Source: an uncultured virus (IMG/VR IMGVR_UViG_3300032092_000020) (taxonomy: Duplodnaviria > Heunggongvirae > Uroviricota > Caudoviricetes). Taken from it: a DNA stretch of 64,000 nt. The notes under the pieces were generated by a model. It had not been told where the DNA came from. It searched no databases and saw nothing but the letters and a program-made list of their open reading frames with translations. The stretch lies in IMG/VR virus record IMGVR_UViG_3300032092_000020; one strand, 5' to 3'. Numbering within the stretch: the stretch's first letter is position 1; each line of letters opens with the position of its first letter. Below are positions 1,053-23,286 of this stretch, one piece after another. Position numbers and translations under genes: made by a program.

Positions 1053-1188
1053 AACTCACGTTCACGCACTTACCCTCCCGCTGCCATCTCACCCCGCGCC
1101 ACGCCGCTCCCGTCCTAGTTGACACCTCGCCCCGCATGGCATAGATTCATTCCTGTCAGCAAGTCCACCGCTCCGAAAGGCTCCCGCC

Positions 1189-1464
1189 ATGTCGCTCCCC
1201 ACGCCGCTACAGATTCGCAAGCACGACGTGACAACCGATGGCGTCACCTACACCGTGTCCACCCTCCTGGCCGCCGACCTCCGCACCGTCACTGAGGTCA
1301 TCGTGTTCGCTCCCGACGGGTCACAGTATGACTTTGGGACCGATGCCACCGCCGCGATCCTCGCCGCCGACATGGGTGCCGACGCTCTCGCGGAGTACGC
1401 CGAGTACGTGTTCCGCGGCTGGGGAAACCTGCCCACGGTCAACGGCCTGATCGCCCTCTCCTGA
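1189..1464 (+). CDS. Hypothetical protein
   Basis: GAAAGG RBS after promoter 1119. Confidence 0.75.
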   Translation: MSLPTPLQIRKHDVTTDGVTYTVSTLLAADLRTVTEVIVFAPDGSQYDFGTDATAAILAADMGADALAEYAEYVFRGWGNLPTVNGLIALS

Positions 1465-1474
1465 CCCTCTCCCG

Positions 1475-1506
1475 ACTACGCCCCGCCCCCTCCGGCGGGG
1501 CGTAGT
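1475..1506 (+). terminator. Hairpin ACTACGCCCCGCC/GGCGGGGCGTAGT; related copies near 792-820, 2490-2515, 7885-7902
   Basis: 13-bp stem right after a stop codon. Confidence 0.65.
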
Positions 1507-1529
1507 TGTGTCTGCCACGACTCTGCCGA

Positions 1530-1660
1530 CCCTGCACCCTGCACCCTGAGCCCTGCACGGCGCTGCACTCTGCGTTGCACGGCGCTGCACTCTGCGTTGC
1601 ACGGCGCTGCACTCTGCGTTGCACCCTGAGCCCTGCACCCTGCACGGCGCTGCACCCTGC
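1530..1660. repeat. Microsatellite of CCCTGCA and CTGCACTCTGCGTTGCACGGCG units upstream of box 1669
   Basis: Directly visible. Confidence 0.9.
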
Positions 1661-1812
1661 GACCCGCGAACTCACGTTCATGCACTGCCCCACTCGCGGC
1701 GATACCGGCGCTGCCGACGCTCCCGCCCCGCGCTAGTTGACACCTCGCCCCGCACCTGTCATAGTCATGTCATCGGGCCGCACCCGCCGCCCCTGACAGC
1801 CGGAGGATCCCC

Positions 1813-2160
1813 ATGACGCTCACCGCCACCGCCGCTCACCGCGTCACCCGCGACGGTGCCCTGGCATCGGCGCGACGCTTCCACGATTCGTGGGCGTTCG
1901 TGACCACGACGTCCACCGCCCACCGTCCGGTGACGTACCGCGTGATCGGGAGCGACGGTAACGGCGGAGCGTACGCCCTGTCCGGTGAGACGAACCTAGT
2001 TGTGTGGGTGACCCTGACCGGCCACTCGCGCCGCGACGGTCGCGTGTCGGCGCGTGTCCACTACCCCCACGACACTGGCGATGCCGCCGGTACCCTCGCG
2101 TTCGACGCGTCGGATTCCCTGCCCGCCGCCCTTTGGGCCGAGCACTTCCCCACGGCCTGA
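1813..2160 (+). CDS. Hypothetical protein
   Basis: GGAGG RBS after promoter 1737. Confidence 0.7.
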   Translation: MTLTATAAHRVTRDGALASARRFHDSWAFVTTTSTAHRPVTYRVIGSDGNGGAYALSGETNLVVWVTLTGHSRRDGRVSARVHYPHDTGDAAGTLAFDASDSLPAALWAEHFPTA

Positions 2161-2192
2161 CCACCTACCCCCACGACGTTAGGACACCTGCC

Positions 2193-2477
2193 ATGACCGC
2201 CACCGCCCCCACTGTCGCCGCGTGGGAGATCCGCTACTGCCAAGCGTGCGAACGTCCCGCCCTCGCCTACGTCTCTCACCGCGACGGCGCGGACGACTAC
2301 GCCGGAGTGTGCCCCGCGTGTGATCGGGAGTACGCCGAACTATGCCCGTGCTGCCAGGATGGAACGGCCTACCCCGAACTAGACCGCCCCTACTGCCCGC
2401 CGTGTGCCGACTACAATGACGATGTGGCGCGCGAGGCTTACATCGCCTACCGCGCGGAGATCGCCGCGCGCTACTAG
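2193..2477 (+). CDS. Cys-rich hypothetical protein, paralog of 9789-10043
   Basis: Multiple CxxC; shares DGTAYPELDR. Confidence 0.75.
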   Translation: MTATAPTVAAWEIRYCQACERPALAYVSHRDGADDYAGVCPACDREYAELCPCCQDGTAYPELDRPYCPPCADYNDDVAREAYIAYRAEIAARY

Positions 2478-2658
2478 CCGCCCCCTCGCCCGCCCCGCCC
2501 CCTCCGGCGGGGCGCGTGAGCGTCACCGCCCGAACTCACGTTCACGCACCTCTCACCCTCGCGCCACCTGCCGCCCCTGCCGCCCCCGCTTGACACCTGC
2601 CAGGATCGGAGTAATGTCATCCCTGTCAGCACCTCCCGCCTCACCCTTTGGAGTCCAC

Positions 2659-2868
2659 ATGACCCGCACCCCGCTCACCACTACTGCCGCACAGTCGGCA
2701 GGGATGACCCTCACGATTCTCCGGACGGATGCTCACGGTGAGACATTCCGGCTCACGGGCAGGGTTGAGATTGCCGACGGTTACGGCATCCTGAGAGTCG
2801 CCCCCGGCACCCTCTCGGAGTACAGCGTGACCCTCGGAGGTGTCCACACGCCGTTTCCTCACATGTAA
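2659..2868 (+). CDS. Hypothetical protein
   Basis: GGAG RBS after promoter 2590. Confidence 0.65.
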   Translation: MTRTPLTTTAAQSAGMTLTILRTDAHGETFRLTGRVEIADGYGILRVAPGTLSEYSVTLGGVHTPFPHM

Positions 2869-2953
2869 GCCCCACGCGCCGTTTGACACCGCTCCCGATC
2901 GGAGTAATGTCATCCCTGTCAGCAACCCCCGCCCGATGGAAGGATCACCCGCC

Positions 2954-3145
2954 ATGCCTGGTCACCCCGCCCCCACGCCGAACCGCGTGGATCCCCTCGC
3001 GTTCGTCGTTGCCGCCCTTGCGATTGCCGCGTTCATCGTGGGATTCCTGTTCATTACGTTCCTCCCGCTCAACCCGATCGGCGCCGTTCTGATTACCGGC
3101 GGTTGTGTCCTCATTCTCACCGCCGGAGTCCTCGCCGCATCCTGA
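2954..3145 (+). CDS. Small membrane protein (two hydrophobic segments)
   Basis: GAAGGA RBS; LAFVVAALAIAAFIVGFLFITF and AVLITGGCVLILTAGVLAA. Confidence 0.7.
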   Translation: MPGHPAPTPNRVDPLAFVVAALAIAAFIVGFLFITFLPLNPIGAVLITGGCVLILTAGVLAAS

Positions 3146-3184
3146 CCCCTCACCCGCCCGCACAACGTCCCGAAAGGACACGCC

Positions 3185-3367
3185 ATGCTCACCGCTCCCG
3201 CTCCCGCCCGCGTCACCCCGCCGCCCGCCCCTGGCATCCGGTGGACGCCGACGTTCACCGCGTCGCCCCGCACCTACGCCCCTGGCACGTTCGGCCTGAC
3301 CGATGCCGAGCGCGTCGCCTACCTCGCGCACCTCCGGCGCAAGGTCCTGGCAGGGGGTGAGGCATGA
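3185..3367 (+). CDS. Hypothetical protein sharing a segment with 10094-10462
   Basis: PGIRWTP..T..PRTYAPGTF. Confidence 0.7.
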   Translation: MLTAPAPARVTPPPAPGIRWTPTFTASPRTYAPGTFGLTDAERVAYLAHLRRKVLAGGEA

Positions 3368-3550
3368 TGCCCTGACACCTACGCCGTCGGCCCCCCGCGT
3401 CCTTCCCTGGCGCGGGGTTCCGTCGCCCTCACCCCGAACTCACGTTCACGCACCGGCATCCCTGGCGCGCGGCTGCCGCGTTTGACACCCCGCTAGATCG
3501 GAGTAATGTCATCCCTGTCAGCAAGCCACGCCTCACCCCTTGGAGTCATC

Positions 3551-3829
3551 ATGGACTACACCGCGACCCCCGACTACACCGCGATCACGGTGGCCGCCCT
3601 CTACGTTATGCGCGAGCGTGGCGCGGTCAAGGTCGGCGCAAAGACTTGCCTGGATGACGGTGGCAAGTGGCGCCGCGCGTATGACCTGACCCCCGAGCAC
3701 GACGACCTGGCGATGACCTGCCTCGCGCGGTCGCTGTTCCCGTCGGACGGTTCCACTGAGGTTTGGTTTCTCGGTGCCGACGGCGAATACATGAACGAGG
3801 ACGGCGCGTGGCCGGAGGTGGACGAATGA
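3551..3829 (+). CDS. Hypothetical protein
   Basis: RBS after promoter 3482. Confidence 0.7.
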   Translation: MDYTATPDYTAITVAALYVMRERGAVKVGAKTCLDDGGKWRRAYDLTPEHDDLAMTCLARSLFPSDGSTEVWFLGADGEYMNEDGAWPEVDE

Positions 3830-4047
3830 CGCGCCACTCGGACGCGCTCACCGCGTTCCTGGATCCCGTCCACCGCGCGCACTTCGACGGCGTGGCGGGA
3901 GTGGTCACGTTCACCGCCCACGGGTCCGGCCACGATGTCGTGCCCGTCACCGCCCCGGTGGACCGCGCGACGCTCACCCGTATGGTGCGCGCTCACGACT
4001 TCGACTGCTGCGACTGGCCGACGCGCCTGGACTACTTGCGCGGGTGA
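3826..4047 (+). CDS. Hypothetical protein
   Basis: ATGA overlap with the preceding gene. Confidence 0.65.
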   Translation: MTRHSDALTAFLDPVHRAHFDGVAGVVTFTAHGSGHDVVPVTAPVDRATLTRMVRAHDFDCCDWPTRLDYLRG

Positions 4048-4170
4048 TCGCCCCGAACTCACGTTCACGCACCCCCACGCCGCGCCGCGTTCTCGCCCTG
4101 TTTGACACCTGCCAGGATCGGAGTAATGTTGTCCCTGTCAGCAAGTCACCCCGCACCTTGGAGGCACCCG

Positions 4171-4347
4171 ATGGACACAATGACCCGCACGATCGCGGCA
4201 CAGGACCGCGAGGTGCGCCACGACGCTTGTGGCACCTGGATCCCGTGGGCAGGCTTCGCGTTTCACCACGTGGACGGCGGACGCTACGGCCTCGCCGCGT
4301 GCCCCACGTGCTCCGTGGTCACATCGTTTCGGGTGGCCGGACGATGA
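4171..4347 (+). CDS. Small Zn-finger-like protein
   Basis: HDAC...CPTC; GGAGG RBS. Confidence 0.65.
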   Translation: MDTMTRTIAAQDREVRHDACGTWIPWAGFAFHHVDGGRYGLAACPTCSVVTSFRVAGR

Positions 4348-4616
4348 CCGCCCTCGCGTGGTCGCGCACCGGCAAGGGCCGGTATGGCGAGATCGACGAC
4401 CGCGACGTGACTCACCCTCGCCACCTGTCGTTCTGGATCACCGCCGACGCCCGCACGCGACAGTGGACGATCAACGCCGCGATCGGCGGGCGCACCGTCG
4501 GCCCGCTGGATCTTGTCCCCTCGTACTCGGAGGGACGCGCGACCGTGGACCGCGCCGCCGTGATCGTGAGCCGCCAACTCGCCCAGGAGTACCGCGACGC
4601 ACTCGGGCAGGGGTGA
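4344..4616 (+). CDS. Hypothetical protein
   Basis: ATGA overlap. Confidence 0.65.
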   Translation: MTALAWSRTGKGRYGEIDDRDVTHPRHLSFWITADARTRQWTINAAIGGRTVGPLDLVPSYSEGRATVDRAAVIVSRQLAQEYRDALGQG

Positions 4617-4741
4617 GGGGAGAGGACTAACTCACGTTCACGCACCTCTCGCCCTGCCGCCCCGATCGCCCCGTTTGACACGCGACCTAATCGGAGTAAC
4701 GTGGTCCTTGTCAGCAACCGCCCCCACCCTTGGAGGATCCC

Positions 4742-5014
4742 ATGTCCCGCATCGTTGTCGCCACGGTCACCGCGGAGCGTCAGCACGCCTACACGGTCAC
4801 CCTCTCGGACGGCTACACGTTCCTCTCGTCCTACTCGCCCCTCGCCCACGAGACTCTCGCGTTCCCGATCGTTGCGGGTGCCATCGACTACCGTGAGGTC
4901 GCGTCACGCTTCGGCGCGGTCCCCGACCACGCGGGAGTGGTGGACGACATTCTCGCCCGCCGCAACCTTCGACCCGCCCGCGGCGTTGAGGTCCCCGCCC
5001 CTCAGGGCTGGTGA
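4742..5014 (+). CDS. Hypothetical protein
   Basis: GGAGG RBS after promoter 4675. Confidence 0.7.
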   Translation: MSRIVVATVTAERQHAYTVTLSDGYTFLSSYSPLAHETLAFPIVAGAIDYREVASRFGAVPDHAGVVDDILARRNLRPARGVEVPAPQGW

Positions 5015-5016
5015 CG

Positions 5017-6399
5017 TCAGCGGCGGCGCATGGGCTTGGGGATGCTGCCACTCGCGGCACTCTTGGCCCTTGCGCCGCCCGCACTGAATCCCGCGGGCTG
5101 CTTCACGACTAGGGCCGAGAGCGCGTGGACTAGCGCGTCGATCCTGTCGGGAGACTTCTTCGACGCCCCTGGTTCCCACGAGAGCATTTGACTCTCCAAC
5201 TCAGGCATCACGTTGAGGTGGTGGATCCGGCGCTGCTCATACGCGAGGACGACAGGCTCCGCGCGGAGCACCTTCCCGACGTGAGCGCGTACGTCGATCA
5301 CGCGGATGCTCGGGTCGATCCCGTTGATCGCACCGCGCACGAGAGCGCCGCCCTGGTTCACTTCGGCAACCACTGGGGCCTGGTACTTGTTCGCCATAGC
5401 GACCACGCGACGCGCCCACGTCCCCGGCGACCCGTGGACGCTCGCATCTTCGATGACGTATCCCGACCGGCGGTAGAGTTTCCTCTCGCGCGTCGCCCCG
5501 ACCACGACGATGCCGCACTCATCCCGCGGGTTCTCGGACACGCTCGGGTCCACCCCGACCACGACGGTCAGCCCGGACGGTAACTCACGTACACGCATCT
5601 CGTCGATCAGGTCCTCTTGCCAGAGCGCGCCCTCAACCTTGTCCAGCATCTCGCCGTAGAGTTCCTGGCGCGCAAGGCTTGTCCCCTCGTACAGCCCCAT
5701 GATAACGTCGAGGTACGCCGCCGACAGGTTGCCCACGTTGTCCATCGTTGTGCCTCGGATGAACAGCACGCGCTCCGGATGCTGCTCGGCCTCGGCCAAC
5801 AGCGCTTTGATCGCGGGGATACGCTTCGGGGTCGTCATGGCAAAGATTTGCGGGTGCGCGCCTAGTCGCGTGGCGATCCGGACGTTCTCCCACGCCGTAA
5901 GGCCGGAGTCGTCAGGGATCCACTTCCACGCCGCCCACTCGTCACATGACGCCCAGTGGAACTGAGGACCACGCAACTGATTAGGCTCGTCGGAGGAAAA
6001 CGCGATAGCGGTCGAACCGTTCGGCCAGGTGAGCAACCGCTTCGACGGCTCCCACAGCGGTCGCTCACTTGGAGGACTCACCGCCATGATGCCGGACTCG
6101 CCCTGAATCATCACGTCGCGCACGTCGGCGCTTGTTCGTGCGACGAACGCGCCGCGGGATCCTGGCATCCGCTTGGCCTTTTCACGCACCCACTCACTCG
6201 CGGTGCGCGTCTTCCCGACACCACGCCCGCCCAGGTACGCGCACACTGACCACGTATCGTCGTCCAGTGGTTTGCGCTGCTCAGGTCGTCCCCAGAATCC
6301 CCAGTCCCAGAGCAAAGCCTCCTCGTCCAGTCCGGCTAGCGCGGCTTCGCGCTCGTCGGGTGAGAGTTCGGCAACGATCTGCGCGAGACTAAGGGCCAT
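5017..6399 (-). CDS. terL: Terminase large subunit (Terminase_6-like ATPase plus RNase H-fold nuclease)
   Basis: Walker A GGRGVGKTRT, LRGPQFHWASCDE, RQELYGE, VVGVDP, SPDRIDA. Confidence 0.9.
   Translation of the reverse strand: MALSLAQIVAELSPDEREAALAGLDEEALLWDWGFWGRPEQRKPLDDDTWSVCAYLGGRGVGKTRTASEWVREKAKRMPGSRGAFVARTSADVRDVMIQGESGIMAVSPPSERPLWEPSKRLLTWPNGSTAIAFSSDEPNQLRGPQFHWASCDEWAAWKWIPDDSGLTAWENVRIATRLGAHPQIFAMTTPKRIPAIKALLAEAEQHPERVLFIRGTTMDNVGNLSAAYLDVIMGLYEGTSLARQELYGEMLDKVEGALWQEDLIDEMRVRELPSGLTVVVGVDPSVSENPRDECGIVVVGATRERKLYRRSGYVIEDASVHGSPGTWARRVVAMANKYQAPVVAEVNQGGALVRGAINGIDPSIRVIDVRAHVGKVLRAEPVVLAYEQRRIHHLNVMPELESQMLSWEPGASKKSPDRIDALVHALSALVVKQPAGFSAGGARAKSAASGSIPKPMRRR
5582..5598 (+). 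promoter_or_regulatory. Near-copy of the 17-bp box inside terL
   Basis: AACTCACGTACACGCAT, one mismatch to AACTCACGTTCACGCAY. Confidence 0.6.
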
Positions 6400-6540
6400 C
6401 TGATCATCCTATCATCCGATCAACTCACGTTCACGCACCGCCCTCCACGCCTGCCCGCCTCCCCCACTTGACACCTGCCGTGAAAGGTGTAGTGTTGTCC
6501 TTGTCAGCAAGACCCAACAACTCAACAAGGGAGCACGACT

Positions 6541-6744: not shown

Positions 6745-6910
6745 CACCTCGACCCCGGACTCTCCCGAAAGGCGGGAGGGCCGGGGTCGCGGAAGATACA
6801 CCCTGAACTCACGTTCACGCACTCCCCTCATTCTCGCGCTTGACAGTCCCCCCGATCACCGGTAATGTCGTTCCTGTCAGCAAGTCCCCCGCCAGGAAGG
6901 AACCGGCATC

Positions 6911-7072: not shown

Positions 7073-7087
7073 ACGGAAGGAACGACC

Positions 7088-7306: not shown

Positions 7307-7518
7307 TGGCACGCGACCCCCGCGACCTGCGCGACCTTGCCGAGGAACTACTCAACCTCGCGCAAGACACGCTCAACGACGCATCGTTCGCTATCGCTCT
7401 CGGAGACGCGGCCCGATCCATCGAACTCATCAACGAGGCGCGTCAGTTCCGCGAGACGGCCGAACTCACGTTCACGCACTACGAACGACTCACCGCTCCG
7501 CTCTCCGACCTCGCTTGA
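7306..7518 (+). CDS. Hypothetical protein; its 3' end reads through a 17-bp box
   Basis: TAATG coupling; box translated as ELTFTH. Confidence 0.6.
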   Translation: MARDPRDLRDLAEELLNLAQDTLNDASFAIALGDAARSIELINEARQFRETAELTFTHYERLTAPLSDLA

Positions 7519-7580
7519 CACCCTCCCGAATCTGCGAGAGGATCGTCCTGTCAGCAAGTCACCACAACGAAAGGCACACC

Positions 7581-7853: not shown

Positions 7854-8030
7854 CACCCCCTAGACCCTGCGCCCCGTCGGTGACCTCCCCGGCGGGGCGT
7901 AGCCAACTCTTCCACCCAACTCACGTTCACGCACCTCTCCCGTCTCGTCCCTGCGCCCGCTTGACACACTCCCCCGACCTGCTATGGTTAGTCCTGTCAG
8001 CAAGAAACGCACCGCCCACCAGGAGGAACC

Positions 8031-8162: not shown

Positions 8163-8183
8163 TCACTCAACCAAGGAGAACTC

Positions 8184-8611: not shown

Positions 8612-8711
8612 CGCCCGAACTCACGTTCACGCACCGATCACCCCGAACCACTTGACAACCCTCGCCCTGTCGCGTAGGTTGTACCCATCAACCAAATCAC
8701 CAGGAGGAACC

Positions 8712-8975: not shown

Positions 8976-9187
8976 GCAACGTCCGGCTGCTCTGCCACTG
9001 TGGAGACGTCGCCCGCAACGACGGCTCAGACTATGAGGGCGTCTGCTCTCAGTGGCCGCTCTGCGAGACGCGGGAGGGTCCAACTCACGTTCACGCACCC
9101 TTCCCGAGCGTCACCCCCGACCACGCTTGACACCTACCGCGACTCCGCGTAGGTTGTACCCATCAGCCACACCAACCAGGAGGAATC

Positions 9188-9669: not shown

Positions 9670-9788
9670 GCGCGGAGCGCTAACTCACGTTCACGCATTC
9701 CCCCGAGTCTCACCGCGCGGTGCTTGACACCCTGCCGCATCTAGCGTAGATTCATCTCTGTCAGCAAGGAATCAGCCAAGGAGGAGCC

Positions 9789-10462: not shown

Positions 10463-10631
10463 TCGAGCGTCGGCCCCCTATCGAGAGGTAGGGGGTTCGG
10501 CTCTCTCCCCTCCGAACTCACGTTCACGCACTGCCACTGCCTGCTGGGGCAAATCGGACATTTGACAACCTCCCGAATCGGAGTAATGTTGTCCCTGTCA
10601 GCAAGACCAACCACACCACCAGGGAGACACC

Positions 10632-11033: not shown

Positions 11034-11158
11034 CGGACGCTTCCAACTCACGTTCACGCACTTCGGTCGCCGCGCGCTGTTCGTACGACTTGACACACTC
11101 CACGCTCTCCCGTAGTGTCGTCCCTGTCAGCAAGTCACCCCAAGCACCGGAGGCTCTC

Positions 11159-11650: not shown

Positions 11651-11794
11651 TCCCCAGGTGGCCCGTTCGAGCGATAGGTTGCCAGGAGGAGGACTAACTC
11701 ACGTTCACGCACTTCCCCTTGTTCCCCTGACTTGACGCCCCACACGATCCGCCCTAGTGTTGGACTCATCAGCAAGACAACAGAAAGAAGCACA

Positions 11795-12606: not shown

Positions 12607-12796
12607 GGCCGAGGGGGAGGGGTCACACCCTCCCCCTTGACCTAGCCCTATCATCCGATCGGCTGGCCCGCGTCCCCGCTAACTCACGTTCACGCACCAC
12701 GCTCCCTCCTCTCCGATCTTCCTCACTTGACACGGCGTCGCCCTTGCCGTAGTGTCATCCCTGTCAGCAAGTCCCCCGCTCCGAAAGGACCACATC

Positions 12797-13108: not shown

Positions 13109-13141
13109 GCCAGGACCGCTTGACACCTAAGCGGTCCTGGC
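13109..13141. promoter_or_regulatory. 13-bp inverted repeat overlapping the -35 of promoter 13120
   Basis: GCCAGGACCGCTT-GACACCT-AAGCGGTCCTGGC. Confidence 0.7.
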
Positions 13142-13179
13142 GTAGTCTACTCTCATCAACCCCGAACTAGGAGGAACAG

Positions 13180-13380: not shown

Positions 13381-13553
13381 TGTTGGAAGGCGAGAACTAC
13401 GAGCAGTGTGCCACGCGCCTCGCGCGGCGTGCCGAGGAACTACTCTCCGCGCGTCGGGCACTCCCCGACCGCGTGGCGCAGGGCGCAGCACTTGCGGCGA
13501 CGGCACAGGTCTACGCGACCCTCGCCACGTTCACCCGCAAGACAGAGGACTAA
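13380..13553 (+). CDS. Small helical protein (AQVYATLA motif)
   Basis: TGATG coupling; stop codon overlaps box 13552. Confidence 0.65.
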   Translation: MLEGENYEQCATRLARRAEELLSARRALPDRVAQGAALAATAQVYATLATFTRKTED

Positions 13554-13654
13554 CTCACGTTCACGCACTCCGGCTGAACGCGACCCGCTTGACACGCCGC
13601 CCAACCTCAGGCAGGATTAGTCCTGTCAGCAACCACCAACCGAAGGGAAGCATC

Positions 13655-14280: not shown

Positions 14281-14398
14281 CCCCCGAGGGGTGAGCCTAA
14301 CTCACGTTCACGCACCGGACGGGTGGCGGCCCGCTTGACAGCCGCCCCCGTTTCGGGCAGACTCCACCACATCAGCAACTAACCGAAGGGAGAGCGGC

Positions 14399-16287: not shown

Positions 16288-16304
16288 GTGCGTGAACGTG
16301 AGTT
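16288..16304 (-). promoter_or_regulatory. Only inverted copy of the 17-bp box
   Basis: GTGCGTGAACGTGAGTT on +, 19 bp before TTGACA at 16324. Confidence 0.9.
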
Positions 16305-16390
16305 AGCCCGACGGTCCGCCCACTTGACAGACTCTCGATACTCGGCTAGTGTTGCCCTTGTCAGCAACCCCAGACTGAGAGGACATCCCA

Positions 16391-16887: not shown

Positions 16888-16985
16888 ACTCACGTTCACG
16901 CACCTGTCCCACACACCTACTTGACACCCTGCCAGGATAAGGTAGTGTCATCCCTGTCAGCAACTCCCCACGAAAGGACAAAACC

Positions 16986-17465: not shown

Positions 17466-17860
17466 TGGGCGCCGACCTGATCGCGATGGGTGTCACTGTT
17501 GACCCGAACAAGGCGAGCGAGCGTGAGCGCGCCAAGTACTGGATCAACCTGTTGTCCGATGATCAGATCAACACGGTCATCGACCACGCGGATGCGGACC
17601 CCTTCGGGGACATGCTCGATGACCTGACGGAGGCTCGAGACTTCATCGTCGCGGGCATCCTCGAGATCAACGGGTGGGCCGACGGAGATCGTTACACCAT
17701 CGACTTCGCGATCGACGGGAGCGAACGGGTGTTCTACGTCGCCGGAGGTACGTCCTGGGGCGACTCCCCGTTCGATGCGTGGGACCAAGTAAACGCGGTC
17801 CTGAACCTTCCCGACGAGATCCTCTACGCGCTCGGTATCTTCCCTGGGGTTCAGCCGTGA
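17465..17860 (+). CDS. Acidic hypothetical protein
   Basis: TGATG coupling; MGADL...AGGTSWGDSP. Confidence 0.7.
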   Translation: MGADLIAMGVTVDPNKASERERAKYWINLLSDDQINTVIDHADADPFGDMLDDLTEARDFIVAGILEINGWADGDRYTIDFAIDGSERVFYVAGGTSWGDSPFDAWDQVNAVLNLPDEILYALGIFPGVQP

Positions 17861-18075
17861 AGACCATTATTCATGTGAACCAGCACAAGATCCGAGCGCG
17901 CGAGGATGCGCCGCTTACGGTCAAGACCTACAAGGACAACCGTGCGGCGACCGAGGCCGACATCCTGGACGAGGCAGGCAACGTCGTTGCCACCATCGTC
18001 TACCGACCCGACAACCCTCTGTCCTGTGGGGCACGGGTGTGGATCGAGACGAAGAACGAGGTGAAGATCCGATGA
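17857..18075 (+). CDS. Hypothetical protein, paralog of 37963-38220
   Basis: IIHVNQH...YRPDNPLSCGARVWIET. Confidence 0.8.
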   Translation: MKTIIHVNQHKIRAREDAPLTVKTYKDNRAATEADILDEAGNVVATIVYRPDNPLSCGARVWIETKNEVKIR

Positions 18076-18242
18076 CTCAGCGGTGCGCCGAGTGCGGCGA
18101 CGAGTTCACGCGAACCGACAAGTGGGTGGACTACTGCCCTGCCCACGAGCGGATGACGGTCATCGAGGCCACACTCTATGTGATCACCGTGCTCGCCTGC
18201 CTGGGAATGGCGTGGCAACTGACGAGCAAGATCTTCCTCTAA
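18072..18242 (+). CDS. Small Zn-finger plus TM protein
   Basis: CAEC...CPAH then a hydrophobic segment. Confidence 0.6.
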   Translation: MTQRCAECGDEFTRTDKWVDYCPAHERMTVIEATLYVITVLACLGMAWQLTSKIFL

Positions 18243-18340
18243 CTCACGTTCACGCACCTGACCTGTTCGACCTCACTTGACATCCTGCGCCAAGAGAGTA
18301 GTGTTACCTCTGTCAGCAACCCCCGACCGAAAGGACGACC

Positions 18341-18766
18341 ATGCCCACGATCCAGCGAGACGAACTGATCGCCGCCGTGCGCGAGTTCGCAGAGGCAGAT
18401 CCCAACCATGTCTACACCAAGACGGACCTCAACCCATCTTCCGAGGACTACATCATGTCCTTCGAGGATGTCGGCGGATGTCTCTACTCCGACCTCGGCG
18501 TCGAGCAGTGTATCGTCGGACGCGCCCTGTCCAAGTGCGGCGTGATGATGAGCGTGCTCCGCTCTGCCGACCTGGATTCCTGGGGAAGCGTCGCGTCGGT
18601 TGTCACCCCCGAGGACACCAACGACGACGAGCCGCGCATCGTGGTCGAGGGCTTGACCGAGGACGATGTCCAGTGGCTGATGATCGTTCAGGATAGCCAG
18701 GACAAGGGGCTGCCTTGGGCCAAGGCCGTGTACCGCGCCGACATCGCCAAGGGGGTGCTCGCATGA
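18341..18766 (+). CDS. Hypothetical protein
   Basis: CLY...CIVG...Q..QD.G.PW. Confidence 0.75.
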   Translation: MPTIQRDELIAAVREFAEADPNHVYTKTDLNPSSEDYIMSFEDVGGCLYSDLGVEQCIVGRALSKCGVMMSVLRSADLDSWGSVASVVTPEDTNDDEPRIVVEGLTEDDVQWLMIVQDSQDKGLPWAKAVYRADIAKGVLA

Positions 18767-19119
18767 GTGCCCAAGAACTCGCCGACGGGTGGGCCGAGGT
18801 CGAGGCCGAACTCACCGAGGCTAAGGGCATCGCCTGGGACACCTGCCACAAGATCTACATCCTCATGGACGAGGAGCAGATGGCGCAGATGCGTGAGTAC
18901 GAGTACGACCCGCTCATCCCCATCTCGCACCTGGACGCAGGCAACCCCGATCGGTCGGACGCCTCCCTCCAACGCGCGGCGCTCGCGCAACTCCACGAGT
19001 GGTACGACGCCTCGTGCGGGCTCCGCTTCATCAACTCCGTTCGTACGAACAAGGAGGACCCCAACGAGGGGTTCACCAGCCTCATCCGGCAGTTCGCCTC
19101 CGACGAGGAGGATGACTGA
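18763..19119 (+). CDS. Acidic hypothetical protein
   Basis: WDTCHKIYILMD...WY..SCGLRFI. Confidence 0.75.
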   Translation: MSAQELADGWAEVEAELTEAKGIAWDTCHKIYILMDEEQMAQMREYEYDPLIPISHLDAGNPDRSDASLQRAALAQLHEWYDASCGLRFINSVRTNKEDPNEGFTSLIRQFASDEEDD

Positions 19120-19349
19120 TGGACGACATTTACGTCCTCACCGCGATCGTCGAGGCAGGGGTGAGAGCCGATGAGTTGACCGAAACCGACATCTGCGGAA
19201 TGCTCGGCACGACGCCGGTTCGCGCGTTCATCGACGACCTCCTCTGCCGCCTCCAAGACTACGGGTTCAGCCACGAACTCCACACGTCGTCTGGTGCCTG
19301 GGCGACGCTGTTGGAGGACGCGCTGGACGACATCGAACTACGCGACTAA
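19119..19349 (+). CDS. Small acidic protein
   Basis: TGATG coupling; stop overlaps box. Confidence 0.65.
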   Translation: MDDIYVLTAIVEAGVRADELTETDICGMLGTTPVRAFIDDLLCRLQDYGFSHELHTSSGAWATLLEDALDDIELRD

Positions 19350-19439
19350 CTCACGTTCACGCACCTGGCTTGACAGCCCCAAGCATCAGGGGTAGCGTTA
19401 CACCTGTCAGCAAGAACCAACCGACCGAAGGAGAAGATC

Positions 19440-19793
19440 ATGGCTCAGACTTTCCGTCACACCGACGACATCATCACCGAACTCGCCGGAACCTACGGCA
19501 TCCAGGACCCCGACAACCCCATGGTCGACCTCGACTCTGTGGAGTTCCTGGACCTCGACGCCGCGCGCGGACTCATCGAGGCGCTGAGTGAGATCGGTAC
19601 CGACGCCGAACTCTGCCCCGAAGATGAGTTCGAGAACTACGCGCGCGAACTCGCGGAGTCGGTCGGAGCGATCAGCGACACGGCCTCGTGGCCCAACAAC
19701 CACATCGACTGGAAGGCCGCAGCAGAGAGCCTGCGCCAAGACTACTCGTGGGTCGTCATCAACGACGTCGAGTACCTGTACCGTGAGTGCTGA
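19440..19793 (+). CDS. Acidic protein resembling the ArdA-like antirestriction C-terminal region
   Basis: F..YA.ELAE..G...WP..HIDW..AA..L..DY; functional call tentative. Confidence 0.55.
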   Translation: MAQTFRHTDDIITELAGTYGIQDPDNPMVDLDSVEFLDLDAARGLIEALSEIGTDAELCPEDEFENYARELAESVGAISDTASWPNNHIDWKAAAESLRQDYSWVVINDVEYLYREC

Positions 19794-19977
19794 CCTCACG
19801 GCGCTGGACCTGAGCGCCCTCGGCCCCACACACGAGTGTGTGTGCGGGTCGGGGGTGTTCAAGGCTCTGGTGTCGTTCGACGACTACGACATCGCGTCGT
19901 GGTCCCTCATCGGCTACTGCGTCGTCTGCGACTCGAAGGTGACTTTACCTTGCCCTGTCGATCGAACGGAAGGCTAG
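19783..19977 (+). CDS. Small Zn-ribbon protein
   Basis: GPTHECVCGS...CVVC. Confidence 0.65.
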   Translation: MSADLTALDLSALGPTHECVCGSGVFKALVSFDDYDIASWSLIGYCVVCDSKVTLPCPVDRTEG

Positions 19978-20078
19978 TCGAACTCACGTTCACGCACCCC
20001 CTCCCCTCCCCGTTTGACAGATTCGCGGAACTCGCATAGTGTCTGTCATGTCAGCAACCACCAAGCGAAGGGATCATC

Positions 20079-20810
20079 ATGTCAGTCAAGGTTCGCAAGG
20101 GAACGCAGTTCCGCAGCGTCATCGCCGACTGTTCGGCCTTGTGGGAAGTCACCTCCGTCAAGGGCGACACCGCCTACGCCGTCGTGGTCGACGAGCCGTT
20201 CGAGATCGGCGGCGTCACCTATCCAGGTGAGTACGCCGGACAGGAAGATGTCTTCCTCGTCGACACCATCAAGAGCCGCCTCGCGCTCTCGGCCGTCCTC
20301 ACGAGCCTAGACAACCGCCGCGAAGACTTCTTCGAGAACCTCACGCCTGGGGATGTGTACCACTACCACAACGGGTTCGGCGAGTACGTCCGATGCGTTG
20401 TGACCGAGAGCCACGAGTTCCAGCCGATCGCGCTGATCGGCGAGTGGAGGCAGTACGACCTCTACCGAGTCGACGCGACCGGCAAGGTCCACCACGGCTA
20501 CCACGCCGCGAAGATCCTCAGCGGTGAGGGCGCATGGCAGCCGTCCGAGACATGCGTGTACGAGTCCGACGAGTTCGTGGCACCGCGCGGAGAGGGACGA
20601 GACTTCGACCCCCGCCTACGCGACCCGCTCGACCTCACGCCGCCGACGCCCACCGCGGAGGAGACGCTGCGCCACGAACTCTGGAAGGCGTGGTACGCCG
20701 CAGGAGAGGCCATCGACAACCACCGCGACGAGCCGATCGAACTCATCCTGCCACGGGTGATCGAGAACCTCGCTACTCGCGTGGACAAGGCGCTGGGGGT
20801 GACGGCATGA
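20079..20810 (+). CDS. Hypothetical protein
   Basis: 243 aa after promoter 20014. Confidence 0.8.
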   Translation: MSVKVRKGTQFRSVIADCSALWEVTSVKGDTAYAVVVDEPFEIGGVTYPGEYAGQEDVFLVDTIKSRLALSAVLTSLDNRREDFFENLTPGDVYHYHNGFGEYVRCVVTESHEFQPIALIGEWRQYDLYRVDATGKVHHGYHAAKILSGEGAWQPSETCVYESDEFVAPRGEGRDFDPRLRDPLDLTPPTPTAEETLRHELWKAWYAAGEAIDNHRDEPIELILPRVIENLATRVDKALGVTA

Positions 20811-21049
20811 GCGCCTTCCGCGCGGTGCGCTTTCACGCCGAGGAGTGGGTCGACGATTATGGTGTCGAGATCGACCCGAAGGGTCCGGCCATCTGGACAC
20901 CCTCCGATCTCGACGCGTTGCTCGAAGGGTACGGCGACCCTGCCGACGCCTTCCGCTACGAGCGGTGGTTCGACTACGACCCCGCCTGTCCGGACTGGAT
21001 CAAAGAGCACGACGGCCCGTTCTGGATCGAGTTCGCCTTCGACAACTAA
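20807..21049 (+). CDS. Small acidic protein
   Basis: ATGA overlap; W..H.GPF; stop overlaps box. Confidence 0.7.
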   Translation: MSAFRAVRFHAEEWVDDYGVEIDPKGPAIWTPSDLDALLEGYGDPADAFRYERWFDYDPACPDWIKEHDGPFWIEFAFDN

Positions 21050-21134
21050 CTCACGTTCACGCACCCCGCTTGACAACGCAGGGGTGAGAGCGTAGACTCA
21101 TCCCGTCAGCCACCATCAACCGAAAGGACACACC

Positions 21135-21818
21135 ATGCCGAACTGGGTAGAGACAAACGTGAGCATCAGCGGCCCCGCGGACTCACTCCGCGCCTGGGCG
21201 AAGAAGAGCCTCGAAGGGTACGTCATCAAGGAAGGCGACCCGCAACTCGCCTCCGCACGCCACCTGGGTTACACGGGTGCGCGCACCGAGGGTGTGGGTC
21301 AGTTCACGTTCGGCGCGCTGACCGGCGTGCCCGACGACTTTGCCCACAACTGGTACGACCGGTCGGTCGAACTCTGGGGCACCAAGTGGGACGTCTCCGA
21401 CGTCAACACCGGCAGCGGGTTCGGCGAGGATGCCGGTCCCTCCGACCTGCTCGAATGTGTCGAGTCGGCGATCAAGGATCCTCGACCCGACGGGTCGGTG
21501 GTCTACTCCCTCTCGTGGAGCACCGCGTGGTCTCCCGCGATCCCGTACTTCGACGCGCTCGTTGCGGCCTACCCCGATCTCGTTGTTCATGCGACTTACA
21601 TCGACGAGGGCGACAATTTCGTCGGGTACGCGATCATCAGCGCCGACGAACGAATCGTGGTCGACCTCGACTCCGAGAGTCTCATCCCGAGGGCCGAGTA
21701 CCCCGAGGCCGATGACGACGGCAACGTGGACGAGGCCGCACTCGAAGCCTACTACGAGGCGCACATGGAGCGCGAGACGCTCGTGCGCGACCGCCTGGAA
21801 GAACTCTCCTGGGCCTGA
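21135..21818 (+). CDS. DUF1281/YubB ferredoxin-like-domain protein
   Basis: MPNW.., WYD....WGTKWD, TAWSP motifs. Confidence 0.7.
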   Translation: MPNWVETNVSISGPADSLRAWAKKSLEGYVIKEGDPQLASARHLGYTGARTEGVGQFTFGALTGVPDDFAHNWYDRSVELWGTKWDVSDVNTGSGFGEDAGPSDLLECVESAIKDPRPDGSVVYSLSWSTAWSPAIPYFDALVAAYPDLVVHATYIDEGDNFVGYAIISADERIVVDLDSESLIPRAEYPEADDDGNVDEAALEAYYEAHMERETLVRDRLEELSWA

Positions 21819-21888
21819 CTTGACGGGCAGGGGTGAGGCGTGTAGCCTCATCCCTGTCAGTCACCACCATCTACCGAAAGGACACATC

Positions 21889-22338
21889 ATGGGAGACAGG
21901 ACTTACCACCAGGGGCGCATCGTCGCTCAGTCGATCGAGACAGCGGTGCTCATCGGTGACCACCTCAGCCAGGAATGGCTGCCGAGTGAACTCTCAGTCC
22001 AGGGACGCATCGTTCAGTACGCGTGCGAGGATGCGTACCTCGGGAGCACCGACCAGATCATCGAGCAGGCTTACACCATCGCCCGCGACCGCGGCGAGGT
22101 GATCGCCTACCACGCGTGGGAAGACCCGCGCTACGAGTTCCCTGGCGCGCTCACCATGTCCGACGGGTCGGACTCCTGGTACGGAGACTGTACCTCGAAC
22201 GGTGATGCTTACCTGATCTATCAGGGATACGTCACGGCGAAGGCGGACGGCGCGACCGACGCTGTCATCTTCGGCGAGAACGTGCGGACCTCGTTCGAGT
22301 CCATCCTCACCGCTGCCGAGATGGAGGTGACGGTATGA
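21889..22338 (+). CDS. Hypothetical protein
   Basis: GAAAGGA RBS after promoter 21820. Confidence 0.7.
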   Translation: MGDRTYHQGRIVAQSIETAVLIGDHLSQEWLPSELSVQGRIVQYACEDAYLGSTDQIIEQAYTIARDRGEVIAYHAWEDPRYEFPGALTMSDGSDSWYGDCTSNGDAYLIYQGYVTAKADGATDAVIFGENVRTSFESILTAAEMEVTV

Positions 22339-22703
22339 GCATCGAAGAGGTCAGCGCCGACGGACGGGTGAAGGTCGAGTGGATCTACATCGGTGAAGGA
22401 CTGTCGGGAGACTACGACCCGGAGGACCCGAACGACATGCCACTCATGCGCTTTGACGCATACGTCAACACCCAACTCGTACCATCAAGCGTGATCGACT
22501 TTGAGTCGTCCGATGTCGAGGACGATCCCTGGGCGATGCCGCAAGATTCGTCGTACTGTACGTACGTACGCGAGGACGCGGAGACGGACGTGCTCCGCGC
22601 GTACGCCATCCTGATCGCCGAGGAGTTGAGCGGCGCACTCGACAGCGGTTCGTGGAAGCGCACCGCCGAGGAGTGCTCATGGGTGGGGAAGGTCAGCGCA
22701 TGA
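22335..22703 (+). CDS. Acidic hypothetical protein
   Basis: IGEG.SGDYDPEDP.D.PL.RFD...SYCT. Confidence 0.75.
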   Translation: MSIEEVSADGRVKVEWIYIGEGLSGDYDPEDPNDMPLMRFDAYVNTQLVPSSVIDFESSDVEDDPWAMPQDSSYCTYVREDAETDVLRAYAILIAEELSGALDSGSWKRTAEECSWVGKVSA

Positions 22704-22766
22704 GTGAGACAGCCAAGCCGATGGGTGGCTCGCACGAACACCACACAACATCAACGAGGAGGACCG

Positions 22767-23177
22767 ATGCAAACCTTTCTTCCGTATGAGTCCTTTCAGG
22801 CCTCTGCTTCATCGCTGGACAGACAGCGTTTAGGAAAACAACGTGTTGAGAACTTACAAATTATGAAGGCTCTGCTCGGCCTCTCGAAGGGTTGGTCCAA
22901 TCACCCTGCGGTACGTATGTGGCGCGGGCATGAGGACTGGCTCTTGGAGTACCAGCGAGCCATTTGCGAGGAGTGGACCTCGCGGGGATACAAGGACACC
23001 TGCCTACAGAAGACCGAAGACATGACTCCGAAGAGCGTATCCGACTACCCAGAGTGGCTGGGTCGTGAAGATCTCCACAGGAGTCATCGGATGAACCTGA
23101 TGCGTAAAGACCCGACGTTCTACGTGTTCCCCGATGCTGGTGATCCTGTTACCGCCGAATACGTTTGGCCCGTCTAA
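22767..23177 (+). CDS. Pyrimidine-dimer DNA glycosylase-like (MSMEG_6728 family) protein
   Basis: MQTFLPY..F..SA..LD..RLGKQRVE, NHPAVRMW, H.SH..NL.RKD. Confidence 0.85.
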   Translation: MQTFLPYESFQASASSLDRQRLGKQRVENLQIMKALLGLSKGWSNHPAVRMWRGHEDWLLEYQRAICEEWTSRGYKDTCLQKTEDMTPKSVSDYPEWLGREDLHRSHRMNLMRKDPTFYVFPDAGDPVTAEYVWPV

Positions 23178-23286
23178 CCGTACTCTCCGAACTCACGTTC
23201 ACGCACCCGGCCAGGGGTGATTTGACAAACGCAACTGGTCGCGGTAGGTTCATTCAGTCAGCACGCAACTTCACGAAAGGAGCATC

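What the first reader, a model, noticed from the sequence alone, without database searches (positions are those of the whole stretch)
1053..23227. Box-to-promoter distance is quantised in helical turns
Seen (hand-counted gaps between box end and -35 start): 5,5 | 15,16,17,17,17,19,19,19,19,20 | 25,26,28,28,28,28,29,29,29,29,30 | 35,39,40 | 49,51. None fall in 6-14, 21-24, 31-34 or 41-48, although the intervening sequences differ. Established: face-of-helix dependence is typical of class I activators such as CRP contacting alpha-CTD. Inference: a protein bound at the box contacts RNA polymerase from the same DNA face, which favours an activator/recruitment site over a pure recombination site or RNA element.
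Basis: partly seen in the sequence, partly recalled or inferred. Interest (0 to 1): 0.85.

Follow-up and report, generated by a model that had tools for sequence, protein, structure and literature searches.

The report
Phased operator box upstream of phage promoters
An uncultured high-GC phage carries about 28 identical copies of a 16-base box upstream of its early promoters, and the box-to-promoter distances cluster about one DNA helical turn apart, which suggests that an unidentified phage protein bound at the box acts on RNA polymerase from one face of the DNA.

Summary
Observation confirmed. The box AACTCACGTTCACGCA has 30 copies within 3 mismatches, against 0.68 expected. Of the 29 + strand copies, 27 lie 6-52 nt upstream of TTGAC[AG]-N16/17-(T/C/G)ANNNT promoters, which mostly start in a conserved CCTGTCAGCAA motif. 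One inverted copy lies 19 nt upstream of a promoter.

Phase clustering is strong: Rayleigh R 0.675 at a period of 11.2 bp (bootstrap 10.6-11.65), exceeded by 0 of 20000 simulations under each of three nulls with a period scan. After collapsing related promoters (n=19), the worst case is p 0.001, or 0.0026 scan-corrected. Linker sequences are no more alike than shuffles.

Caveat: two modes carry most of the signal, 18.7 (n=9) and 29.1 (n=11). The other 7 gaps fit the ladder only at p 0.014-0.07. "Phase-biased" (circular SD 1.6 bp) fits better than "quantised".

Best reading: the box is the operator of an unidentified, probably phage-encoded DNA-binding protein that acts on RNA polymerase from one helical face. 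The sign is open. Near-consensus core promoters, box-less twins and two promoter-less boxes argue against obligatory class-I activation. I found no independent lineage carrying the box.

The parts
1053..1162 (+). box 1053-1068; gap 50; TTGACA 1119; TAGATT 1142-1147; leader CCTGTCAGCAA
1669..1773 (+). box with 1 mismatch, 1669-1684; gap 52; TTGACA 1737; CATAGT; no TCAGC leader
2533..2632 (+). box; gap 41; TTGACA 2590; TAATGT; leader
3437..3524 (+). box; gap 29; TTGACA 3482; TAATGT; leader
4056..4144 (+). box; gap 30; TTGACA 4102; TAATGT; leader
4629..4717 (+). box; gap 30; TTGACA 4675; TAACGT; leader
5582..5597 (+). promoter-less near-box (15 of 16), antisense inside the terminase gene (5017-6399, minus), in a segment not conserved in the DSL-LC01 terminase
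6422..6510 (+). box; gap 30; TTGACA 6468; TAGTGT; leader
6806..6883 (+). box; gap 18; TTGACA 6840; TAATGT; leader
7463..7557 (+). box; gap 36 (off phase); TTGACA 7515; GAGGAT; leader
7918..8003 (+). box; gap 27; TTGACA 7961; TATGGT; leader
8618..8694 (+). box; gap 18; TTGACA 8652; TAGGTT; leader variant CATCAACC
9082..9169 (+). box; gap 29; TTGACA 9127; TAGGTT; leader variant CATCAGCC (paralogue of 8652, gap differs by 11)
9682..9767 (+). box; gap 26; TTGACA 9724; TAGATT; leader
10515..10604 (+). box; gap 31; TTGACA 10562; TAATGT; leader
11045..11133 (+). box; gap 29; TTGACA 11090; TAGTGT; leader
11696..11775 (+). box; gap 20; TTGACG 11732; TAGTGT; leader CATCAGCAA
12158..12250 (+). box; gap 40; half-box AACTCACC at 12194; TTGACA 12214; TAGATT; no TCAGC leader
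12681..12770 (+). box; gap 30; TTGACA 12727; TAGTGT; leader
13552..13632 (+). box overlapping the upstream TAA stop; gap 21; TTGACA 13589; CAGGAT; leader
14299..14378 (+). box; gap 20; TTGACA 14335; CAGACT; leader CATCAGCAA
15074..15162 (+). box overlapping the upstream TAA stop; gap 29; half-box AACTCACC at 15099; TTGACA 15119; TAAGTT; leader
16289..16366 (+). inverted box (16289-16304, reads on the minus strand), 19 nt before TTGACA 16324; N17; TAGTGT; leader CTTGTCAGCAA
16887..16963 (+). box overlapping the upstream TGA stop; gap 18; TTGACA 16921; TAGTGT; leader
18241..18319 (+). box overlapping the upstream TAA stop; gap 20; TTGACA 18277; TAGTGT; leader
19348..19413 (+). box overlapping the upstream TAA stop; gap 6; TTGACA 19370; TAGCGT; leader
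19981..20057 (+). box; gap 17; TTGACA 20014; TAGTGT; leader
21048..21112 (+). box; gap 6; TTGACA 21070; TAGACT; leader CCGTCAGCC
23190..23260 (+). box; gap 16; TTGACA 23222; TAGGTT; leader CAGTCAGCA
27712..27780 (+). exact promoter-less box overlapping the TAA stop of gene 26955-27713, followed by a strong hairpin and the convergent minus gene 27736-28080
2883..2925 (+). box-less promoter with the same core and leader as 2590 and 3482
13120..13165 (+). box-less promoter TTGACA-N17-TAGTCT
21820..21865 (+). box-less promoter TTGACG-N17-TAGCCT with leader CCCTGTCAGTCA
26955..27713 (+). speculative candidate box-binding protein (252 aa): HTH_23 plus a homing-endonuclease-associated repeat, no nuclease domain; its stop codon overlaps the last box

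Best explanation
The window is the early region of a phage genome of about 110 kb with high GC content. About 28 transcription units of small genes of unknown function are each driven by a host sigma-A/sigma-70-type promoter: TTGACA, 16-17 nt, TANNNT, with a start in CCTGTCAGCAA.

The 16-bp asymmetric box is most likely the operator of one sequence-specific DNA-binding protein. That protein is probably phage-encoded and is not identified. Because the box sits at about 6, 18.7, 29, 39-41 or 51 nt from the -35 hexamer, the bound protein lies on roughly the same helical face at every promoter. If the start is the G of CTGTCAGCAA, the box centres fall near -50, -63, -74, -85 and -95. From there the protein would touch RNA polymerase (alpha-CTD or upstream-wrapped DNA) or a partner at the start-site motif, and so co-regulate this whole promoter class.

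Shown: the copies, their association with promoters, their orientation, the phase bias, and the unrelated linkers. Inferred: protein binding, contact with polymerase, and the start site. The sign is open. I put a temporal switch (shut-off or modulation of already strong promoters) slightly ahead of obligatory activation.
For: - Abundance and conservation: 30 copies against 0.68 expected, 28 of them exact.
- Promoter link: 27 of 29 + copies have TTGAC[AG] 6-52 nt downstream, whereas only 5.7% of positions in 1-28000 do. TTGACA occurs 48 times on + and 5 times on -.
- Phase bias: R 0.675 at 11.2 bp, 0 of 20000 under three nulls. It survives collapsing related promoters (p 0.001-0.003). Ladder slope 10.83 +- 0.32, bootstrap period 10.6-11.65.
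- Linkers are no more alike than shuffles, so the length classes are not inherited sequence.
- The closest paralogous promoters keep phase while changing turn: 2533/4056 (90% identical) have gaps 41 and 30, 8618/9082 have 18 and 29, and 12158/15074 have 40 and 29.
- The inverted box keeps the class-2 distance of 19.
- No RNA structure at 4 of 5 folded box contexts (z 0.30, 0.38, 1.20, -0.44); no Rfam family.
- About 8 boxes lie downstream of a strong hairpin, so they sit outside the upstream transcript if that hairpin terminates.
- The box is confined to the first 27.7 kb. Later promoters at 29-59 kb lack both box and leader.
- No bacterial genome among the 120 listed rows carried more than one copy (truncated), which points to a phage-encoded rather than a host factor.
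Against: - 26 of 27 promoters have a perfect TTGACA and 23 of 27 have TANNNT, so they should not need an activator.
- Box-less promoters with a similar core exist at 2883, 13120 and 21820.
- Two boxes (5582, 27712) have no promoter.
- Two modes carry most of the phase signal. The other 7 gaps fit at p 0.014-0.07, and the gap of 36 is about 4 bp off.
- The phase spread is wide (circular SD 1.6 bp).
- No binding protein is identified. The only candidate (26955-27713) rests on domain content and position.
- No independent lineage with the box was found, so there is no evolutionary replication.
- The tool's strict E. coli-type scan calls only 5 promoters in 1000-20999, against 1.8 +- 1.5 in shuffles. 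My promoter calls use the looser TANNNT rule.
- The transcription start is inferred, not mapped.
Confidence: 0.55

Rival explanations
1. Stoperator-like roadblock or insulator. A protein bound at the asymmetric box stops polymerase arriving from the upstream unit. The box sits before each promoter only because that is where units end. The spacing classes would then reflect steric compatibility with polymerase rather than a productive contact.
For: - 29 of 30 copies point in the direction of transcription.
- The box is the first element after the upstream gene. In 13-14 units it is 0-18 nt from the stop, and in 6 of those it overlaps the stop codon.
- The two promoter-less boxes lie exactly where + transcription would run into minus-strand genes: the terminase and 27736-28080.
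- The cluster A stoperator precedent: an asymmetric site bound by a monomeric repressor (PMC9283540, abstract seen in the listing).
Against: - Steric exclusion should fade beyond about one turn, yet gaps of 40, 41, 50 and 52 are in phase.
- About 8 boxes already have a strong hairpin upstream, which would make a roadblock redundant there.
- No repressor or integrase was recognised among about 100 window proteins.
- Stoperators are not reported to be tied to promoters at phased distances (recalled).
Confidence: 0.15
2. Recombination junction of mobile regulatory cassettes (PeSL-like). The identical 16-mer is kept uniform by, and serves, homologous or site-specific exchange that shuffles promoter-gene cassettes. 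The spacing classes would be by-products of a few founder cassettes.
For: - 28 of 30 copies are letter-perfect while the flanks are unrelated, as expected under concerted evolution.
- The region consists of small genes of unknown function, each with its own promoter and often a hairpin, like T4-type hyperplastic regions (PMC2839356 and PMC4122927, listing and abstract starts).
- In diverged strains, a contig in each of two runs replaces 8345-8617 by 55 other letters, and the right joint falls exactly at box start 8618.
Against: - Founder inheritance predicts related linkers within a length class, but they are no more alike than shuffles.
- It does not explain why paralogous promoters differ by 11 bp, or why gaps avoid 22-25 (0 of 20 values; P 0.003).
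- The joints rest on single low-depth contigs laid at 80% likeness.
- This reading is compatible with the best explanation rather than exclusive of it.
Confidence: 0.12
3. The box is itself a promoter for a phage-encoded polymerase or sigma factor, or an RNA-level signal (processing or binding site) in read-through transcripts. Its spacing to the host-type promoter would be incidental.
For: - A long, invariant, co-oriented motif upstream of genes is what phage-polymerase promoters look like (established knowledge of T7-type phages, recalled).
- A weak sigma-like protein is encoded at 38577-39200: Sigma70_r2 E 0.0012, r4_2 E 0.0078, and six of the eight listed PDB hits, including the best four, are sigma factors at E 0.05-0.4.
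- In the units without a hairpin before the box, the box would be transcribed.
Against: - No RNA polymerase family hit among about 100 window proteins. The 1105-aa ORF has no Pfam, PHROG or PDB match.
- The box has no -35/-10 architecture at an ECF-type spacing (read directly from the sequence).
- No structure and no Rfam hit.
- One functional-looking copy is inverted.
- This reading gives no reason for the phase bias.
Confidence: 0.06
4. There is no helical meaning. Two preferred intergenic lengths happen to lie about 10-11 bp apart, and a few stragglers fit by chance.
For: 20 of 27 gaps belong to just two modes. The other 7 reach only p 0.07 when the period is fixed from the modes. There is only one genome and no replication.
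Against: - The modes are narrow (SD 1.4-1.7) despite unrelated linker sequences, which itself demands selection on length.
- The mode spacing of 10.4 and the ladder slope of 10.83 match a helical turn.
- 24 of 27 gaps lie within 2.2 bp of a rung (worked out by hand from the fit).
Confidence: 0.1

Closest known systems
Class I activator-dependent promoters (CRP at lac-type promoters; site positions near -61.5, -72.5, -82.5, -92.5, recalled from Busby and Ebright reviews)
   Same: The upstream site acts from one face of the helix at successive turns. The inferred box centres (about -63, -74, -85, -95, plus -50) nearly coincide with those positions.
   Different: The core promoters here are near-consensus (TTGACA in 26 of 27). 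The site is asymmetric rather than a dyad. The binder and any alpha-CTD contact are unknown, and the sign is unknown.
Phage phi29 protein p4 switch (PMC3100819, passages read)
   Same: A phage-encoded protein bound upstream of host-type promoters both activates a promoter with a poor -35 (A3) and represses early promoters (A2b, A2c). It shows that upstream-bound phage factors can shut off strong early promoters.
   Different: p4 has four sites in one control region, some of them overlapping the -35 of the early promoters A2c and A2b. Here there are about 28 dispersed sites with five spacing classes. No homology was shown.
Cluster A mycobacteriophage stoperators (PMC9283540, abstract start in the listing)
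   Same: Many copies of an asymmetric site across a phage genome, oriented with transcription and bound by one protein.
   Different: Stoperators terminate elongation and are not tied to a promoter at phased distances. They belong to temperate phages with an immunity repressor, and no such gene was recognised here.
PeSL promoter/stem-loop cassettes of T4-type phages (PMC2839356, PMC4122927; listing and abstract starts)
   Same: Repeated early-promoter modules flank small genes of unknown function. One strain-variant breakpoint falls at a box.
   Different: PeSLs have no separate invariant box at a variable, phased distance.
Cluster O mycobacteriophage 17-bp repeat (PMC4351075, passages read)
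   Same: An invariant short repeat, with 34 copies in Corndog, mostly in or near intergenic regions of an actinophage. Function unknown.
   Different: That repeat is a dyad (7-bp arms). The paper reports little evidence for a meaningful site orientation relative to transcription and does not link the repeat to its eight or nine predicted SigA-like promoters.
Repeated early promoters of Actinomycetia phage DSL-LC01 (terminase 61% identical)
   Same: The nearest named relative also drives about 25 small early genes from near-identical promoters that carry an extra conserved element.
   Different: There the extra element is an inverted repeat (GATTCTA...TAGAATC) wrapped around a TGTTATAAT -10 at a fixed position. 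It has no distal box and no TTGACA.

Membership tests
Class I (CRP-type) activated promoter | Activator site upstream of -35 at helically phased positions | tested here: met
   Period 11.2 bp (10.6-11.65), R 0.675, 0 of 20000 nulls. The centre positions are inferred from an unmapped start.
Class I (CRP-type) activated promoter | Core promoter weak and dependent on the activator (poor -35) | tested here: not met
   TTGACA in 26 of 27 and TANNNT in 23 of 27. Box-less twins exist at 2883, 13120 and 21820.
Class I (CRP-type) activated promoter | Bound protein contacts the alpha-CTD of RNA polymerase | not testable with these tools
   No binder is identified; this needs footprinting or genetics.
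Stoperator system (cluster A mycobacteriophages) | Many copies of an asymmetric site oriented with transcription | tested here: met
   30 copies, 29 on the + strand.
Stoperator system (cluster A mycobacteriophages) | Sites placed independently of promoters, within or between genes along operons | tested here: not met
   27 of 29 + copies are 6-52 nt upstream of a promoter.
Stoperator system (cluster A mycobacteriophages) | Immunity repressor of a temperate phage binds the sites | tested here: inconclusive
   No repressor or integrase family among about 100 window proteins. About 35 kb of the genome was not examined.
PeSL mobile regulatory cassettes | Early promoter plus stem-loop composite flanking small variable genes | tested here: inconclusive
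   A strong hairpin precedes the box in about 8 of 27 units. The other units have none.
PeSL mobile regulatory cassettes | Insertion, deletion and replacement breakpoints between related phages fall at the motif | tested here: inconclusive
   One replacement joint ends at box start 8618 in contigs of two runs. Those are low-depth contigs, and only part of the table was shown.
Phage-polymerase (T7-type) promoter | The phage encodes its own single-subunit RNA polymerase | tested here: inconclusive
   No RNA polymerase family among the window proteins. The 1105-aa ORF is unassigned, and the rest of the genome was not seen.

The most novel reading that the evidence does not exclude
A nuclease-free derivative of a homing-endonuclease DNA-binding module fused to a sigma-region-4-like helix-turn-helix (gene 26955-27713, whose stop codon overlaps the last box) recognises the invariant 16-bp box. 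It acts as a single master switch for about 28 early promoters. It would reach RNA polymerase from five discrete helical-turn positions out to about -95, giving a natural spacing series that no characterised phage regulator shows. The same invariant box would double as the junction for cassette exchange.
Probability: 0.15. Interest if true: 0.8.

Novelty: new variant of a known kind. Interest (0 to 1): 0.62.

Why it matters
Face-of-helix dependence is normally shown by engineering spacing series at one promoter. Here one genome offers 27 natural spacing variants, with unrelated linkers, of a single site-promoter pair spread over five turns. If the binder is found, this gives a ready-made system for asking how an upstream-bound factor acts on actinobacterial RNA polymerase at strong promoters, and how a large lytic actinophage times its early genes. 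It also shows that relatives (DSL-LC01) solve the same task with a different promoter design, so early-promoter architecture evolves quickly in this group.

Tried and rejected
- Relatives carrying the box. The viral-contig scan gave 24 single, chance-level hits, none with a promoter after the box. L284 (63% identical) and DSL-LC01 carry a different promoter design without a box. Gordonia phage Sixama has tightly packed operons with no such array.\n- megablast of 8 kb against the phage collection gave no match.\n- Distances from the box to the -10 or to the start motif give the same periodicity (R 0.694 and 0.625, against 0.675 to the -35). The partner element therefore cannot be told apart.\n- CTCAC and TCACC are enriched in the linkers (8 against 1.5 expected), but at no constant phase.\n- No RNA holder was listed for the stretch.\n- tblastn of the candidate binder against the phage collection gave no match. 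Its PDB sequence search gave nothing below E 0.48.\n- search of earlier findings returned nothing.\n- The own assembly and the metagenome record are not held for whole-genome searches.

Full report
**What the window is.** GC content is 58-68%. Nearly all genes lie on the + strand. The exceptions are a large terminase at 5017-6399 (Terminase_6N/6C) and a small gene at 27736-28080, both on the minus strand.

The first 27.7 kb holds small genes, almost all without a family match; the last few there are larger, up to 567 aa. Among the 57 + strand proteins I submitted from this region, 11 had a PHROG hit, and for most of those the function is unknown.

From 28 kb onward come DNA-metabolism genes: polynucleotide kinase, SNF2 helicase, exonuclease, Sak4-like annealing protein, SSB and primase.

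The nearest named relative is Actinomycetia phage DSL-LC01, whose terminase is 61% identical. G001 is the same phage (99.998% identity over window 11026-64000). A 110,111-bp metagenome contig, Ga0315904_10000161, carries the same loci in a circular permutation. The genome is therefore about 110 kb.

**The observation.** AACTCACGTTCACGCA has 30 copies within 3 mismatches, against 0.68 expected:
- 27 exact copies on the + strand;
- 1 exact copy on the minus strand (16289-16304);
- 2 copies on + with one mismatch (1669, 5582).

All lie between 1053 and 27727. G001 shows none in the 46.8 kb that follow.

Of the 29 + copies, 27 are followed 6-52 nt later by TTGACA (26) or TTGACG (1). A hexamer follows after a 16- or 17-nt spacer: TANNNT in 23, CANNNT in 3 and GANNNT in 1. 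In 25 of 27, a TCAGC-type motif lies 30-31 nt after the -35 hexamer, with consensus CCTGTCAGCAA.

TTGACA occurs 48 times on + and 5 times on -. Only 5.7% of positions in 1-28000 have a TTGACA 6-52 nt downstream.

The tool's strict E. coli-type scan calls only 5 of these promoters in 1000-20999, against 1.8 +- 1.5 in shuffles, because it demands 4 of 6 matches to TATAAT. My calls rest on the looser TANNNT rule that is usual for actinobacteria (established knowledge).

**Is it more than chance?**

| Test | Result |
|---|---|
| Rayleigh R at 10.5, 11 and 11.2 bp | 0.613, 0.670, 0.675 (nominal p about 5e-6) |
| Period scan 7-16 bp; uniform, jittered-bootstrap and gamma nulls | 0 of 20000 reached the observed maximum in each |
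| Bootstrap best period | 11.2 (95% 10.6-11.65) |
| Class means | 6.0, 18.7, 29.1, 39.0, 51.0; slope 10.83 +- 0.32 |
| Related promoters collapsed to n=19, all 28 choices of representative | R 0.60-0.70; worst case p 0.0011, or 0.0026 with a period scan |
| 16 singletons only | p 0.0014-0.004 |
| Linker similarity against shuffles | mean 0.543 against 0.504; maximum 0.944 against 0.938 |

For the de-duplication test I collapsed promoters with related spacers into three groups: one of seven, plus 1053/1669 and 8618/9082.

Two reservations apply:
- Twenty of the 27 gaps form two modes, 18.7 +- 1.7 and 29.1 +- 1.4. None of these 20 falls in 22-25 (P 0.003 if uniform on 16-31). The remaining seven (6, 6, 36, 40, 41, 50, 52) agree with the extrapolated ladder only at p 0.07 (period 10.42, taken from the modes) to 0.014 (period 11).
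- The classes are 5-6 bp wide (circular SD 1.6 bp), so the spacing is phase-biased rather than sharply quantised.

**Anatomy around the box.** There are two kinds of context:
- In about 8 units (2533, 3437, 6806, 7918, 10515, 11045, 11696, 12681), a strong hairpin lies between the upstream stop codon and the box.
- In 13-14 units, the box follows the stop within 0-18 nt. In six of these (13552, 15074, 16887, 18241, 19348, 27712), the stop codon TAA or TGA overlaps the first bases of the box.

Both contexts occur in several spacing classes.

Folding four box contexts as RNA gives no structure (z 0.30, 0.38, 1.20, -0.44). Only 27712 sits in a strong hairpin (z -6.0). Rfam finds nothing in 1-30000.

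The two promoter-less boxes lie where + transcription meets minus-strand genes:
- 27712 overlaps the stop of gene 26955-27713 and precedes the convergent gene.
- 5582 (15 of 16 bases) lies antisense inside the terminase gene, in a stretch (DEMRVRELPSG) that is not conserved in the DSL-LC01 protein. Coding constraint therefore does not explain it.

Box-less promoters with a similar core stand at 2883, 13120 and 21820. All promoters after 29 kb lack both box and leader.

**Paralogue comparison.** The most similar promoter pair, 2533/4056, is 90% identical over the 40 nt after the -35 hexamer and has gaps of 41 and 30. The pair 8618/9082 has gaps of 18 and 29. The pair 12158/15074 shares a half-box AACTCACC 4 nt before TTGACAGGAT and has gaps of 40 and 29. 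Each pair differs by 11 bp. This is not independent of the overall distribution. It does show that related promoters have moved by whole turns.

**Diverged strains (contigs laid at 80% likeness, mostly one contig per difference at depth 5-7, so weak).**
- The linker after box 7918 has +5 nt, with -1 in the spacer. The gap goes from 27 to about 32.
- The linker after box 16887 has +2 nt. The gap goes from 18 to 20.
- One contig runs from a box through 3 + 23 + 3 letters into the TTGACA at 6468. That is a gap of 29 with a linker unrelated to the window's 30-nt one.
- A replacement of 8345-8617 by 55 letters ends exactly at box start 8618, in contigs of two runs.

Most rows of these tables were not shown.

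**Interpretation.** These features are what a protein operator in helical register with a promoter looks like:
- a 16-bp invariant, asymmetric site;
- confined to one promoter class;
- lying outside the upstream transcript in about 8 units, if the hairpins there terminate;
- kept at distances one turn apart through unrelated linkers.

The box centres would fall near -50, -63, -74, -85 and -95 if the start is the G of CTGTCAGCAA (an inference). This is close to the positions recalled for CRP class I sites.

The fitted period of 10.6-11.65 spans both 10.5 and the roughly 11.1 bp measured in vivo in looping experiments (recalled). A loop to a factor at the conserved start motif is therefore as possible as a contact with alpha-CTD. 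The periodicity is equally strong measured to the -35, the -10 or the start motif.

The sign is not determined. Near-consensus core promoters and box-less twins argue against obligatory activation. The phi29 p4 case shows that an upstream-bound phage protein can repress early promoters while activating one with a poor -35 (PMC3100819, passages). I also recall from Monsalve et al. 1997, not seen here, that the strength of the -35 decides the sign.

The promoter-less boxes at convergent junctions suggest that the bound protein may also block read-through.

No bacterial genome in the truncated list of 120 rows had more than one copy, and none had box plus TTGACA. The binder is therefore more likely phage-encoded.

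The only candidate I can name is gene 26955-27713:
- It has HTH_23 (E 3e-6) plus a homing-endonuclease-associated repeat.
- Atlas neighbours combine Sigma70_r4 with HNH_repeat (scores 0.90-0.91).
- It has no nuclease domain and no relative in the phage collection.

Such modules read long asymmetric sites, which would suit a 16-bp invariant box. This remains speculation.

**Comparison and novelty.** I searched the papers library for actinophage repeats and stoperators, DSL-LC01, helical phasing at phage early promoters and PeSL. None of the listed papers describes a phage repeat at helically phased, variable distances from promoters. These were four keyword searches of open-access text, not proof of absence.

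The closest systems are class I promoters, phi29 p4, stoperators, PeSLs, the Cluster O 17-bp repeat (PMC4351075, passages) and the repeated promoters of DSL-LC01. Each shares some features but not the combination. I rate the finding a new variant of a known kind, namely an operator array with face-of-helix dependence.

The main weaknesses are that the evidence comes from a single genome, the binder is unknown, the starts are unmapped, and two modes dominate the statistic.

Noticed in passing
window 1-232, 832-1052, 1553-1624: Intergenic tandem arrays: period 7 (GCCTCTT, 33.6 copies), period 14/31/103 (CAGCAGGACAGCAG type) ending exactly at box start 1053, and period 22 (3.2 copies). DSL-LC01 has ACGCAC-type arrays near its terminase (L033:22072-22674).
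   Followed up: partly
window 5582-5597: A 15-of-16 copy of the box lies antisense inside the terminase gene, in a protein segment not conserved in the closest relative. Chance expectation for such a match is very small.
   Followed up: partly
window 5017-6399: The large terminase gene sits alone on the minus strand in the middle of + strand early cassettes. In DSL-LC01 it is co-oriented with its neighbours.
   Followed up: no
window 38577-39200: A 207-aa protein with weak Sigma70_r2 and r4_2 matches. Six of its eight listed PDB sequence hits, including the best four, are sigma factors (E 0.05-0.4). It is a possible phage sigma factor for later genes.
   Followed up: partly
window 12194-12209 and 15099-15114: Half-boxes beginning AACTCACC lie 4 nt upstream of the paralogous promoters TTGACAGGAT, inside the linkers of full boxes. 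AACTCAC outside boxes occurs 11 times on + and 2 times on -.
   Followed up: partly
linkers of the 27 units (719 nt): The linkers are 54% C. CTCAC and TCACC occur 8 times each against 1.5 expected, and CTGCC 10 times against 2.9. They show no constant position.
   Followed up: partly
window 27712-27780: The last box pairs with GT-rich sequence beyond a perfect terminator-like hairpin to form a long stem (-43.5 kcal/mol, z -6.0). None of the other four contexts folded does this.
   Followed up: no
L033 (DSL-LC01) 200-19300: About 25 copies of GATTCTAAAGATGTTATAATAGAATCA: an extended -10 promoter embraced by an inverted repeat, in front of small early genes. A 63%-terminase relative (L284) shows the same -10 style on the opposite strand.
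   Followed up: partly
window 42636-45953: A 1105-aa ORF with no Pfam, PHROG or PDB sequence match.
   Followed up: partly
window 22704-23177; 47043-47759; 48242-48913: A pyrimidine-dimer DNA glycosylase (PF03013, E 7e-27), an endolysin/peptidase-like protein and a transglycosylase-domain protein are encoded among the early and replication genes.
   Followed up: no
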